Part shown: positions 1 to 3,000 of the stretch, one piece after another
Numbering within the stretch: position 1 is the stretch's first letter
Layout: each line of letters opens with the position of its first letter
Source of the DNA: Escherichia coli
Lineage (GTDB): Bacteria > Pseudomonadota > Gammaproteobacteria > Enterobacterales > Enterobacteriaceae
Direction: 5' to 3' (one strand)
Assembly (NCBI RefSeq): GCF_003334385.1
Contig: NZ_QOWN01000078.1
DNA length: 6,064 nt
Made by a program: the position numbers

Positions 1-3000
1 CAACGTCGCTCAGTACAGAGGGATTTGAAAGCTGTTTCTCCATCTGGTTAAAGGCATTGATGTATGCCTCTTTGAACCGGGCAGCACGTTTACCCGTGAA
101 ACCCATAGCAAGAAACGCAAAACCGTCTCGTGTGATTTGATAGCAAGGGAGCTTGCGTGTACCACCGTTCGGTTGATTTACCGAAATCGATGTCTCCGCA
201 AAATTGCGGGCACAAAACTCAGGGGAACAATCCAGAGTGCGGATCTTTTTCAGCACATCGTCGTGACGCTTGGAGAAGAAGTTGGCAACAGCCAAAGAAG
301 TGGTAACGGCCTGGCCGTTGTCAATGGTGATTTCAGGTTGAGTGAGGGCTGGGATCGTAGCCATGATGGCAGCCTCCGTTGACAGTGAAAAACTTCCACC
401 ACCGGAAACGCCAATTTCACTGGTGGTGAACTGGACGGGGTTGGCGTAACCGGCGTCAACGGAGACCGGCGCACCTTTCGGTGCCCCCGCCCAGCCCACC
501 ATAATCTGGATGTGAGCAAATGCGGACGATAAAAAAGACGCTGGCGCGTCATACATCGCCGTTGACAATTTCAGGACGCCAATCCCGGCACCCGCTTTAT
601 AAGGTGCCTGAGCAGTGTAACGTCCCGGAATTGCAGAATCAATATGCAGGTGGTCCTTCACACTCAACAAAATCACGCCTGAATTTCCACAAAGGACTAA
701 AGCACTCATGCGGGTAGTCTTTGCGAAGATAGATAACGCGCTGTGTTTCTGGCTCCCAACGAATAACATGAACATAAAGTCCTCTTCCGTCACGAAACCA
801 GCGGTTAAGTTCCTGCACAACTCGCCCCCCACAGTCAGGTAAAGTTCTCTGTGGTTACTTACAGCCAGGTGATTTGGTAATCTGCATTCATGCCGTAACA
901 ACAGGTGTTCAGCGACGCTGACCACCAGCTGTTGCGACAAACGGTTATTTGCCGTTAAACTGTTCATGCGTTAGTTTCTCCACAGACACAAAACGCCACG
1001 ACGCCCGGAGCTGCACACTCGCGGGCGTCACTCTTTTCTGGAGCGCAAAAGATTTTGTAGACCAGTGCTGCATGCTCCTGGAGCTTCGAAATTGACAGAT
1101 ACAACTCATCATTAATTGCTGTCTGCTCGTGTGGCTCCACTACCCCATCTTCGATTGCCGAACGAATCTGCTTTGAGTAACTCCCGATCTGTTCGATGAC
1201 TTCCAGCAGGCGCTGGTTTATATCGGCGTTCTCTACTTCCTCAATTTCAGGAAGCGATACAAACACCCCACCAGCAGACTGTGCGACAGCATCCGCAATG
1301 TAGTGAGTGCCAGCCGCGCGCTGTAAAATCATTGCCCATCCCAGCGGGAAAATCTGATCGCCATCTGCACGAAGGCGGTTGAATAAAGCGTTCTCTGTTA
1401 CATCCAGCCACTCAGCAGCTTCAGCGTAACCCCCCGGCAACGCCGCGATAGTTTTTCTGACAGCTTTCACGTACCACTCAGGCTGTTTTTCCACTTTCCA
1501 GTGATGATTACCCACGGCTTACCTCCTGTTCCTGTGGTTTAAACCCATTCTGGTTTTGGCTAGATTGAAAACGTGCCGGATAAAGAATCTGCATTTCGCT
1601 GATTTCACCCTTAAAAAAATTGGCCAGACGTTCTGCAAGATCGATAGATGGAATTTGTTCCAGTCTTTCAATACGACTCAGCGTCGCTGGATTGACCTGA
1701 ACGCCCGCAGCAACATGCTGCAAAGTAAATCCGTGCGCCTTACGCACATTCCGTAATGGTGATTGCATATAACCTCCACATATTGCGTGATGAGCATATT
1801 ATTTCACGCAAATATTTTGCGCAAGTTGATTTGCTTAACGCGCAATAAAGAAATGTAATAAACGCATGAACATAGGAAACCGAGTCAGACAACTTCGCCA
1901 GGCGAAGAACATGAAAATCGCCGATCTCGCTGAAGCAATAGGAGTGGATGCGGCGAATATCTCACGCCTGGAAACAGGTAAGCAGAAACAATTCACTGAA
2001 CAAGCCCTGAGTAATATTGCCAGGAGCTTAGGTGTTGATATTGCTGATCTCTTTACCTCAGACGTCAAAAGTAATACTGTATGTAAAAACAGTATTAGTG
2101 AGGATGTTGCGCAGGTGAAGGATGTATTCCGTATTGAAATGCTGGATGTCAGTGCCAGTGCGGGAAATGGCCTTATCCAGGGCGGTGATGTCATTGATGT
2201 GATTCATGCCATTGAATACAGAACTGATAATGCTGTATCGATGTTTGGCGGACGGCCAGCCAATCACATTAAAGTTATCAACGTTCGTGGGGACAGTATG
2301 TGTCCAACCATTGAGCCAGGAGATCTCATCTTCGTTGATATCAGTATCAATCAGTTTGATGGGGATGGTATATATGTATTTGGTTTTGATGATAAAATTT
2401 ACGTCAAACGACTGCAAATGATACCTGATAAACTGCTGGTAATTTCTGATAATCAGATTTACCGCGAATGGGGAATTACCAGCGAAAACGAACATCGGTT
2501 TATGGTCTTTGGAAAGGTCTTAATCAGTCAGTCACAAACCCTTAAGCGACACAATTAACCCCTACCTCAACATCAATTAGCCACCAGAAGGTGGCTTTTC
2601 ATTACCCACCAAATTGCATATCTCGCAATAAAAACACTTGCATAATGCGCAACTTCATTTTATCTTTCTTTCCAGACATACAAACAAGGTACTAACAAAA
2701 TTTGGTTGTAACACGGCGTATGGCACATGCGTCGTTAGCGGTCTGGTGACGTTAAAGGGGACAATCCACTCCTTGCTCGGGCAAACAAACCAGGTAGCCG
2801 GAATGTGCAAGTCAATGATGATGCTGATAAGACGCCTAACCAGCGTGGCGATTCGGTTTGACGCCTGGGAAGAGACCAGGGTGCAACGATGAGGGCATTT
2901 ATGGAACCGCGACAAAGTGTGGTGCCGTAACTGGCTAAGTGCTCTCAGCGTTGTGGTGAATGCGCAGGCTGATGCGCGAAAGACATTGCAGCTATTGCGG

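What the first reader, a model, noticed from the sequence alone, without database searches (positions are those of the whole stretch)
2601..2670. OL/PL-like control region directly after the cI terminator, with no rex-like or other genes between cI and OL
In lambda the cI-to-OL interval carries rexA/rexB, and in many lambdoid prophages that slot carries defence or exclusion genes. Here only 55 nt and a terminator separate the cI stop from the first operator-like site, so this prophage has no cargo in the classical cI-proximal position. Two tandem TTGC-N7-GCAA sites overlap a candidate -35, consistent with a repressible early-left promoter.
Basis: partly seen in the sequence, partly recalled or inferred. 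Interest (0 to 1): 0.35.

Follow-up and report, generated by a model that had tools for sequence, protein, structure and literature searches.

The report
Early-left operator/promoter of an mEp460-type prophage
This is the ordinary repressor-controlled "early-left" switch of a common E. coli lambdoid prophage, sitting directly behind the repressor gene with no cargo in between; the more unusual thing is that its first product is a large, conserved, unannotated folded RNA.

Summary
cI (1866-2558) ends 55 nt before the first of two exact TTGC-N7-GCAA sites (2614-2628, 2638-2652; 24 bp apart). Only a terminator (2579-2600) lies between.

Exact matches number 3 in the window against 0.33 expected (0/200 shuffles). 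The third lies in the cro/cI intergenic region.

The interpretation as OL/PL is supported by comparison, not experiment:
- Half-sites are invariant while the 7-nt centres drift in relatives.
- TTGCAT-17-TATCTT (-35 at 2638-2643, -10 at 2661-2666, start about 2673) is invariant.
- Among 134 loci sharing the downstream leader, all 25 with a related cI DNA-binding domain have at least 2 such sites upstream. Only 1 of the other 109 does, and it is truncated.
- The mosaic junction with other immunity types lies at about 2694. Phage cdtI has its own operators and a TTGACA promoter at the same position.

The layout is common: this OL region occurs in 1040 of 5426 complete E. coli genomes. The window is 99% identical to phage mEp460.

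PL transcribes a roughly 600-nt non-coding leader before yfdP. It contains a roughly 240-nt pseudoknotted RNA with strong covariation and no Rfam match. The same RNA occurs in the P1 ban operon and next to tRNA-Arg in phiV10-like phages. The published sRNA-17 and a strong terminator follow. Relatives carry their cargo there, downstream of PL.

The parts
1866..2558 (+). cI-like repressor gene (230 aa; N-terminal XRE-type HTH domain, C-terminal S24/UmuD-like autocleavage domain)
   Evidence: ORF. PHROG 4 'transcriptional repressor' E=2e-62 and phrog_6201 'CI-like repressor'. PDB matches to UmuD' over residues 137-219 and to 434-type/SinR HTH domains over residues 2-65. Annotated as cI/prophage repressor in mEp460, SfII and PhiR63_1.
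2579..2600 (+). Intrinsic terminator of the cI transcript (7-bp stem, 4-nt loop, TTTT)
   Evidence: Terminator scan. Stem conserved in 9 relatives, with one G-C to G-U change on one side. Annotated as a putative rho-independent terminator in the SfII record.
2614..2628 (.). Distal operator (OL2-like), TTGCATATCTCGCAA; centre about -52 from the predicted start
   Evidence: Exact pattern match. Half-sites invariant and centre variable in relatives. Co-occurs with the cI N-terminal domain.
2638..2652 (.). Proximal operator (OL1-like), TTGCATAATGCGCAA; its left half is the -35 hexamer
   Evidence: Lies 24 bp centre-to-centre from the distal site (22-24 bp in relatives).
2638..2666 (+). Predicted PL: -35 TTGCAT (2638-2643), 17-bp spacer, -10 TATCTT (2661-2666); start about 2673-2674
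   Evidence: Read from the sequence. Hexamers and spacing are invariant in 9 relatives and in distant relatives L067, L106, L110, L111 and L114 (TTGCGT-17-TATCTT). Not flagged by the generic scan that requires 9 of 12 matches.
1783..1845 (.). OR region between cro and cI: operator TTGCGTGATGAGCAT (1783-1797), invariant TTGCGCAA (1817-1824), operator TTGCTTAACGCGCAA (1831-1845). Predicted PR on the - strand: TTGCGC at 1824-1819, 17-bp spacer, TAATAT at 1801-1796. Predicted PRM: TTGCTT at 1831-1836, 17-bp spacer, TGTAAT at 1854-1859, giving a leaderless cI mRNA starting at 1866.
   Evidence: (dyad I1). The outer sites are 48 bp apart, at -83 and -35 from the cI ATG, in all relatives.
2714..2956 (+). 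Conserved structured RNA at the 5' end of the PL transcript. Helices: P1 2714-2718/2730-2734; pseudoknot 2723-2728/2803-2808; P2 2738-2746/2790-2798; P3 2811-2813/2847-2849; P4 2832-2835/2843-2846; pseudoknot 2838-2841/2855-2858; P5 2864-2868/2876-2880; closing helix P6 2884-2898/2938-2953.
   Evidence: 33 diverse homologues: 96.3% of cells paired, 14 pairs with changes on both sides, 0 of 500 shuffles reach this, slid controls 29-43%. P6 compensatory variants. No Rfam match at E<=10. Homologues in P1, P7, phiV10-like and epsilon15-like phages.
2949..3142 (+). Region matching the published 193-nt sRNA-17 of E. coli K1 RS218
   Evidence: Primers, RACE primers and Northern probe from Table S2 of PMC7719688 map here, with orientation implying a + strand RNA.
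3096..3143 (+). Strong intrinsic terminator inside the leader (about 10-bp G+C-rich stem, about -20.7 kcal/mol, then TTTTT); 3' end of sRNA-17
   Evidence: Own terminator scan and folding.
3144..3233 (+). Long hairpin (about 24 stem pairs) between the terminator and yfdP; also present in SfIV and ST64B
   Evidence: Folding. BLAST hits H70 and H82.
3281..3643 (+). yfdP, first protein gene of the early-left operon; followed by yfdQ 3709-4533, yfdR 4661-5197 and others

Best explanation
Positions 2601-2670 are the early-left operator/promoter (OL/PL) of an mEp460/SfV-type lambdoid prophage.

Two 15-bp dyad operators, TTGC-N7-GCAA, lie 24 bp apart directly behind the cI terminator. The proximal operator (2638-2652) supplies the -35 hexamer TTGCAT of a sigma-70 promoter. 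Its -10 is TATCTT (2661-2666) and transcription should start near 2673-2674 on the + strand.

Inferred mechanism: in the lysogen, dimers of the adjacent cI repressor occupy both sites, probably cooperatively, and block RNA polymerase at the -35. After SOS-induced self-cleavage of cI, the promoter fires.

Shown here: the sites, their statistics, their conservation pattern and their co-inheritance with the cI DNA-binding domain. Inferred: binding, repression and the exact start point.

The transcript begins with about 600 nt of non-coding, highly structured RNA: a conserved pseudoknotted element, the sRNA-17 region and a strong terminator. It then enters yfdP-yfdQ-yfdR and runs on to exo and xis. 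The phage has no annotated N gene, so passage through the leader terminator must rely on something else.
For: - Exact motif 3 times against 0.33 expected, all three in cI-flanking control regions. Direct-repeat family D1 and OR dyad I1.
- Conservation pattern in 9 relatives: half-sites, TTTTATCTTT and the 17-bp spacing are invariant, while operator centres vary. OR behaves likewise.
- 25 of 25 loci with a cI N-terminal domain at least 60% identical carry at least 2 sites upstream of the shared leader, against 1 of 109 others.
- Distant relatives keep the OL pair, TTGCGT-17-TATCTT and the OR pair. In L114 and L136 all four sites found in 8.2 and 9.4 kb lie in OR or OL.
- Homology with other-immunity phages starts at window 2694, about 20 nt after the predicted start.
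- cdtI has terminator, own operator, TTGACA and CATAAT at the same place, about 25 nt before the same leader.
- Gene order and orientation match lambdoid early-left operons.
Against: - The hexamers are weak matches to consensus (-35 3 of 6, -10 4 of 6), and a generic consensus scan did not flag the promoter.
- There are two operators rather than lambda's three.
- No binding, reporter or start-site data exist for this immunity type in the literature I could search.
- sRNA-17 was detected in an uninduced lysogen (PMC7719688). Some transcription of the leader therefore occurs when PL should be repressed. This could be leakage, spontaneous induction or an internal promoter.
- A strong terminator lies between PL and yfdP. 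That PL feeds the protein genes is inferred from the gene layout.
Confidence: 0.85

Rival explanations
1. The operators are real, but what they control is chiefly a self-contained non-coding RNA gene: structured element plus sRNA-17, ending at the terminator at 3096-3143. On this view PL is not the promoter of the early-left protein operon, and yfdP and the genes after it would need read-through or another promoter.
For: A strong terminator (-20.7 kcal/mol) lies about 470 nt after the start. A terminator-like hairpin lies within 100-800 nt of the element in 51 of 58 sequence clusters, about twice the background density. In phiV10-like phages the unit promoter-element-tRNA-Arg-terminator stands alone. 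A discrete 193-nt RNA ending at this terminator was detected (PMC7719688).
Against: No promoter-like site was found between 3143 and 3281. The operon has the usual lambdoid early-left layout and needs an early promoter. Terminators inside early leaders are normal where antitermination operates, as at HK022 PL-putL (PMC9378689). This reading is compatible with partial read-through, so it modifies the main explanation more than it competes with it.
Confidence: 0.25
2. PL uses the better -10 CATAAT at 2641-2646, starting about 2653. Both operators would then cover the core promoter as in lambda: the proximal one over -10/+1 and the distal one over -35.
For: CATAAT matches consensus 5 of 6. The geometry would mimic lambda OL1/OL2 (sequence).
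Against: No usable -35 lies 16-18 bp upstream (ATATCT, CATATC); TTGCAT at 2614 would give a 21-bp spacer. CATAAT is not conserved: the SfII group has CATATC and EC332 has CACGTT. Distant relatives have CGTTAC or CGTAAT there. TATCTT and its 17-bp distance from TTGC are invariant.
Confidence: 0.07
3. The two dyads are chance palindromes, or bind something other than cI, and have no role in immunity.
For: With one mismatch allowed the motif count is at chance level (5 against 4.88).
Against: Exact count 3 against 0.33, with 0 of 200 shuffles reaching 3. Sites are confined to OR and OL. Co-inheritance with the cI N-terminal domain is perfect, 25 of 25 against 1 of 109. Half-sites are conserved over variable centres.
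Confidence: 0.02

Closest known systems
Phage lambda OL/PL (with cI-rexA-rexB-tIMM upstream and nutL/N downstream)
   Same: Position downstream of cI in the same orientation. Dyad operators are shared between OL and OR. Neighbouring sites are 24 bp apart. Operators overlap a sigma-70 promoter. PRM is predicted to give a leaderless cI mRNA. The repressor has an S24 self-cleavage domain.
   Different: Two 15-bp operators instead of three 17-bp ones, with an unrelated operator sequence. No rexAB-like genes between cI and OL. No N gene and no nutL; a roughly 600-nt structured RNA leader occupies that place. The proximal operator sits over -35/spacer rather than spacer/-10.
Shigella phages SfII/SfV, phage mEp460, phiSTEC1575-Stx2k, PhiR63_1 (same phage group)
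   Same: Same cI family (about 90-100% DNA identity). Same terminator, two TTGC-N7-GCAA sites and TATCTT. mEp460 is 99% identical to the window.
   Different: Operator spacing is 22 bp in SfII against 24 bp here. SfII and several E. coli prophages replace most of the leader with cassettes containing ORFs on the opposite strand. None of these records annotates the operators or PL.
Phage cdtI / Stx2c phages / 2H10 (other immunity, same leader)
   Same: Same order: cI stop, terminator, operator/promoter, about 25 nt, shared structured leader, yfdP.
   Different: Different cI. Different operator (ATGTACC-N5-GATACAT type). Near-consensus promoter TTGACA-16-CATAAT.
HK022 PL-putL and HK639 pL with 'putL-like antiterminator RNA'
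   Same: Lambdoid phages without N in which a structured RNA lies just downstream of PL, followed by terminators (PMC9378689; HK639 annotation).
   Different: put RNAs are about 70 nt (126 nt annotated in HK639), consist of two stem-loops, and occur as an L/R pair. The element here is about 240 nt with at least six helices and two pseudoknots, in one copy per locus. It shows no sequence similarity to HK639 or to the part of HK022 examined. HK639 also carries four genes between cI and pL, unlike this prophage.
sRNA-17 of E. coli K1 RS218 (PMC7719688)
   Same: Maps to window 2949-3142 on the + strand, inside the PL leader.
   Different: It was described as an independent ArcA-regulated sRNA. The fragment used as its 'promoter' (window 2700-2949) coincides with the conserved structured RNA. 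Its 5' end lies at the junction where phiV10-like phages have the 5' end of tRNA-Arg, so it may be a processing product.

Membership tests
Lambdoid early-left operator/promoter (OL/PL) | Lies downstream of the repressor gene, in the same orientation, at the head of the early-left operon | tested here: met
   cI 1866-2558 (+); sites 2614-2652; yfdP-yfdQ-yfdR and later genes on the + strand, continuing to exo and xis in mEp460.
Lambdoid early-left operator/promoter (OL/PL) | Operator sequence repeated in tandem and shared with OR between cI and cro | tested here: met
   Three exact TTGC-N7-GCAA sites (two in OL, one in OR) plus a GCAT variant in OR. The same holds in relatives.
Lambdoid early-left operator/promoter (OL/PL) | Operators co-vary or co-inherit with the repressor's DNA-binding domain (immunity specificity) | tested here: met
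   25 of 25 loci with a related cI N-terminal domain have at least 2 sites; 1 of 109 others does, and that locus is cut before cI.
Lambdoid early-left operator/promoter (OL/PL) | Operators overlap a functional sigma-70 promoter | tested here: inconclusive
   TTGCAT-17-TATCTT is invariant across relatives. It matches consensus at only 7 of 12 positions and was not flagged by the consensus scan. No activity data.
Lambdoid early-left operator/promoter (OL/PL) | Repressor binds the sites and represses transcription | not testable with these tools
   Needs EMSA or footprinting and reporter assays.
Lambda-type N/nut antitermination downstream of PL | N-like gene as first PL gene, with a nutL (boxA/boxB) site | tested here: not met
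   No N-like gene is annotated in mEp460. The first ORF is yfdP (PHROG 204, unknown function). The boxA-like UGCUCU lies in a helix that covaries away from that sequence.
put-type cis-acting antiterminator RNA (HK022/HK639) | About 70-nt two-stem-loop RNA just downstream of PL, with a second copy downstream of PR | tested here: not met
   The location is met. Size and architecture differ. There is one copy per locus and none in the 1.8 kb of PR operon held in the window. No similarity to HK639. Function was not tested.
Any Rfam 15 family (for the leader RNA, 2600-3300) | Covariance-model match | tested here: not met
   No hit at E<=1 on the window. Only noise at E 1.1-9.5 on 2600-3300.

The most novel reading that the evidence does not exclude
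The first product of this PL is a member of an undescribed, widespread class of roughly 200-250-nt pseudoknotted phage RNAs. It is found at the 5' end of early transcripts of many N-less lambdoid phages of different immunity types, in the P1/P7 ban operon, and fused to tRNA-Arg(UCU) in phiV10/epsilon15-like phages. On this reading the RNA acts in cis on the transcribing polymerase, or on processing of the RNA that follows it. That would let early-left transcription pass the strong leader terminator, giving an RNA-only substitute for N that is structurally unrelated to put. That the structured RNA is real is well supported. The proposed function is speculation.
Probability: 0.2. Interest if true: 0.75.

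Novelty: new member of a known kind. Interest (0 to 1): 0.3.

Why it matters
As an OL/PL region it matters modestly. It gives a concrete, testable operator consensus (TTGC-N7-GCA[A/T]) and promoter for an immunity type carried by about one in five complete E. coli genomes, including Stx2-converting phages and relatives of serotype-converting Shigella phages. No operator specificity has been reported for this type. It also shows that in this phage group the accessory slot is downstream of PL, not in the lambda rex position.

The larger value is the leader. It is a strongly covarying, unannotated RNA that different phage lineages place right after an early promoter or next to a tRNA. It also overlaps the fragment used as a promoter in a published sRNA study. 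If it controls elongation or processing, it would be a new RNA-based solution to early gene expression in N-less lambdoid phages.

Tried and rejected
- ARAGORN finds no tRNA in the window, although the leader is homologous to DNA that abuts tRNAs elsewhere.
- Rfam gives nothing for 2600-3300.
- The leader ORFs (2638-2892 +, 2655-3023 -) match no PHROG family. Indels of 1 to about 17 nt (most not multiples of three) in the variable hairpins make coding unlikely. The mEp460 gp36/gp37 calls are probably spurious.
- The alternative -10 CATAAT is rejected because it is not conserved.
- The boxA/boxC (Nus-factor) reading of UGCUCUC...GUUGUGG is rejected. The segment is the 3' strand of a helix with compensatory variants.
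- Is the leader a 5' UTR specific to YfdP? No. The gene after the element in a phiV10-like phage is unrelated, and in P1 it is ban.
- No second, putR-like copy was found. No similarity to HK639 or to the HK022 segment. That HK022 segment (28.0-40.7 kb) may not include putL, so the negative for HK022 is weak.
- K-12 CPS-53 lacks the leader; only 29 nt before yfdP match.
- The RS218 genome is not in the local collection, so sRNA-17 was placed by primer mapping.
- Literature searches for core sequence strings, yfdP plus small RNA, and related terms found no description of the structured element.
- A middle OR operator could not be assigned. The palindrome CGCAAATATTTTGCG (1807-1821) is exactly 24 bp from both outer sites but has the half-sites everted.
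Full report
What the window is. The 6064-bp window is the immunity and early region of a lambdoid prophage 99% identical to coliphage mEp460. It is closely related to SfII/SfV, phiSTEC1575-Stx2k, PhiR63_1 and several Stx2a phages. The layout on + coordinates is as follows.
- A Rha/Ant-like gene runs off the left end on the - strand.
- Rfam finds C4 antisense RNA (419-506, -) and isrK (531-607, -).
- ymfL, a CII-like gene, is at 964-1515 (-), and cro at 1508-1768 (-).
- cI is at 1866-2558 (+).
- About 720 nt without a credible ORF follow.
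- Then come yfdP (3281-3643), yfdQ, yfdR and further early-left genes on the + strand.

Checking the observation. The cI stop ends at 2558. A hairpin at 2579-2596 followed by TTTT is terminator-like. TTGCATATCTCGCAA lies at 2614-2628 and TTGCATAATGCGCAA at 2638-2652. The stop-to-operator distance is exactly 55 nt, and no ORF lies in it. The exact pattern TTGC-N7-GCAA occurs three times against 0.33 expected, and none of 200 shuffles reaches three. The third copy (1831-1845) lies between cro and cI. With one mismatch allowed the count is at chance level, so only the exact copies carry statistical weight. The repeat finder independently groups the three sites and shows that the cro/cI intergenic region is a 32-nt imperfect dyad centred near 1814.

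Is it OL/PL? Five lines of comparative evidence say yes.

(i) Conservation pattern. I aligned nine relatives that differ by up to 25% over this interval. The TTGC and GCAA half-sites are invariant, with one GCAT exception. TTTTATCTTT and the 17-bp distance from the proximal TTGC to TATCTT are also invariant. The 7-nt operator centres and the DNA between the sites vary, and the site spacing is 22, 23 or 24 bp. OR behaves the same way.

(ii) Choice of promoter. TTGCAT (2638-2643), a 17-bp spacer and TATCTT (2661-2666) are conserved everywhere. The nominally better -10, CATAAT at 2641-2646, is not: the SfII group has CATATC. The start is therefore predicted near 2673-2674. The proximal operator lies over the -35 and spacer, and the distal one is centred near -52.

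(iii) Specificity. I collected 134 loci that share the downstream leader. Of these, 25 encode a cI whose first 75 residues are at least 60% identical to this one, and all 25 have at least two TTGC-N7-GCA(A/T) sites within 260 nt upstream. Only one of the other 109 does, and that locus is cut off before cI. The motif therefore follows the repressor's DNA-binding domain, not the neighbouring DNA.

(iv) Distant relatives. Five loci with only 66-70% identity in the N-terminal domain (L067, L106, L110, L111, L114) keep the same architecture. It consists of a terminator, TTGC-N7-GCAT, a 22-24 bp centre-to-centre spacing, TTGCGT...GCAA and TATCTT. Their OR regions keep two sites at -83 and -35 from the cI ATG, 48 bp apart, around an invariant TTGCGCAA. 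In L114 and L136 every site found in 8-9 kb lies in OR or OL.

(v) Mosaic boundary and analogy. Homology to phages of other immunity types (Stx2c phages, cdtI, 2H10) begins at window 2685-2694, about 20 nt after the predicted start. In cdtI the equivalent interval holds the cI stop, a terminator, TTGACA-16-CATAAT and an operator (ATGTACCCTTGAGATACAT). That operator recurs in cdtI's own OR. About 25 nt further on comes the same leader.

The OR geometry fits the same logic (sequence reading).
- PR is predicted on the - strand as TTGCGC (1824-1819), a 17-bp spacer and TAATAT (1801-1796).
- The site at 1783-1797 lies across the -10 and start of PR.
- PRM is predicted as TTGCTT (1831-1836), a 17-bp spacer and TGTAAT (1854-1859).
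- The site at 1831-1845 lies over the PRM -35.
- The PRM start falls on the A of the cI ATG, giving a leaderless cI mRNA as in lambda.

Weak points remain.
- The PL hexamers match consensus at only 7 of 12 positions, and the generic scan did not flag them.
- There are two operators per region, not three.
- No experiment on this immunity type was found.

"No cargo between cI and OL". This is correct, but it is a property of the whole group. This OL region occurs in 1040 of 5426 complete E. coli genomes. By contrast, HK639 carries four genes between cI and its pL, and lambda has rexAB there (established knowledge).

In this group the variable slot is downstream of PL. SfII, AH62, SCU-101 and BH100 keep the first roughly 40 nt of the leader. 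They then carry unrelated cassettes with ORFs on the opposite strand: an ECs1072-family protein in AH62 and a 170-aa hypothetical in SCU-101 and BH100.

What PL transcribes. Positions 2674-3280 fold far better than shuffled sequence (z = -4.5). They have no Rfam match and no PHROG-supported ORF.

Window 2700-2956 is homologous to unannotated DNA in several other phage groups.
- In P1/P7-type phages it starts immediately after the 3' end of tRNA-Ile and lies upstream of ban.
- In phiV10/epsilon15-like Uetakeviruses it ends exactly where tRNA-Arg begins.

A scan of viral contigs with the invariant 19-mer GGTAGCCGGAATGTGCAAG returned at least 120 loci. Together with the loci already held, they fall into 61 clusters at 88% identity.

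I aligned 33 diverse members and tested a seven-helix structure that includes two pseudoknots. It pairs 96.3% of cells. Fourteen pairs have changes on both sides. None of 500 shuffles reaches this, and slid controls give 29-43%. Conserved G-U pairs, such as U-G in 32 of 33 sequences at one P2 position, favour the + strand as RNA. A further closing helix (2884-2898 with 2938-2953) shows several compensatory variants.

The genomic context of the element is consistent across loci.
- There is one copy per locus.
- In many loci the first helix starts 6-8 nt after a strong -10. That promoter follows a terminator and operators of various immunity types.
- tRNA-Arg(UCU) follows directly in 30 of 134 loci.
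- A terminator-like hairpin lies within 100-800 nt downstream in 51 of 58 clusters, about twice the background density.

In the window the element is followed by the region matching the published 193-nt sRNA-17 of E. coli K1. That region is 2949-3142 on the + strand, placed by primer mapping. It ends at a -20.7 kcal/mol terminator (3096-3143). A long hairpin (3144-3233) and yfdP follow.

The fragment used in that paper as the sRNA-17 promoter (2700-2949) is the conserved structured RNA. The sRNA's 5' end sits at the junction where other phages have a tRNA 5' end. It may therefore be a processing product rather than a primary transcript; this is inference.

Function of the leader. mEp460 has a Q-like gene but no annotated N. 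A structured RNA right after PL followed by a strong terminator resembles the HK022/HK639 put arrangement (PMC9378689).

The element is not a put RNA, for three reasons.
- It is three times larger and has a different architecture.
- It is unpaired, with no PR-side copy.
- It shows no similarity to HK639.

Cis-acting antitermination is therefore a hypothesis, which I put at about 0.2. The alternatives are a stable non-coding RNA or a processing platform for the RNA that follows it.

Verdict. It is an ordinary, very common lambdoid OL/PL of an uncharacterised immunity type, so a new member of a known kind. The notable by-product is the unannotated, strongly covarying leader RNA that this promoter drives.

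Noticed in passing
window 2714-2956 (+): A roughly 240-nt conserved RNA with at least six helices and two pseudoknots. Covariation is strong: 96.3% of cells paired, 14 pairs changed on both sides, 0 of 500 shuffles reach this. It has no Rfam match. It also occurs in the P1/P7 ban operon, in phiV10/epsilon15-like phages and in at least 120 viral contigs, with one copy per locus.
   Followed up: yes
window 2949-3142 (+); 2700-2949: The published sRNA-17 (E. coli K1 RS218, PMC7719688) maps inside the PL leader. The fragment used as its ArcA-binding 'promoter' coincides with the structured RNA. Its 5' end lies where phiV10-like phages have the 5' end of tRNA-Arg, which suggests processing rather than a separate promoter.
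   Followed up: partly
window 419-607 (-), within the long ORF <1-967 (-): Rfam finds C4 antisense RNA (81.4 bits) and isrK (62.2 bits) in the PR operon downstream of ymfL. Both lie inside an ORF annotated as a 383-aa 'antirepressor/peptidase' in mEp460 and STEC1575. The Rha/Ant-like part starts at the in-frame ATG at 363, so the 5' 600 nt of that CDS is probably a P1 immI-like RNA module. This prophage may therefore have a second immunity layer.
   Followed up: partly
L002 4200-4880 (SfII); L012 1359-1971; L013 1334-1846; L014 1335-1847: Relatives with the same OL/PL replace most of the leader with cassettes carrying ORFs on the strand opposite to PL: an ECs1072-family protein in L012 and a 170-aa hypothetical in L013 and L014. 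In this phage group the accessory slot lies downstream of PL, not between cI and OL.
   Followed up: partly
window 2938-2979 (+): A 42-nt stretch (AGTGCTCTCAGCGTTGTGGTGAATGCGCAGGCTGATGCGCGA) matches at roughly 89-93% identity (95% in one shorter hit) in many otherwise unrelated phages of Klebsiella, Salmonella, Erwinia, Edwardsiella and Cronobacter, including 158-161-kb phages. Salmonella phage IME207 shares 148 nt (window 2938-3085). The reason for this spread is unexplained.
   Followed up: no
L005 2742-2818 and 29 other loci: When a tRNA follows the structured element it is always tRNA-Arg(UCU). In most loci it lies at one fixed distance (165 nt from the core 19-mer). In P1-type phages a tRNA with a CAT anticodon (Ile2) precedes the element.
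   Followed up: partly
window 3144-3233 (+): A long hairpin (about 24 stem pairs) lies between the leader terminator and yfdP. It is also present upstream of early-left genes in SfIV (95%) and ST64B (86%). Its function is unknown.
   Followed up: no
window 1854-1868 (+): The predicted PRM -10 TGTAAT ends 6 nt before the cI ATG in all relatives. This implies a leaderless cI mRNA, as in lambda.
   Followed up: partly
window 2638-2892 (+), 2655-3023 (-), 3065-3469 (-): ORFs annotated as hypothetical proteins in some phage records (mEp460 gp36 and gp37, STEC1575 genes 14-16) overlap the structured RNA or run antisense to yfdP. PGAP does not call them. The leader ORFs (2638-2892 +, 2655-3023 -) have no PHROG family. 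PHROG 3651 matches the ORF antisense to yfdP (3065-3469 -) and may be a family built from spurious calls.
   Followed up: partly
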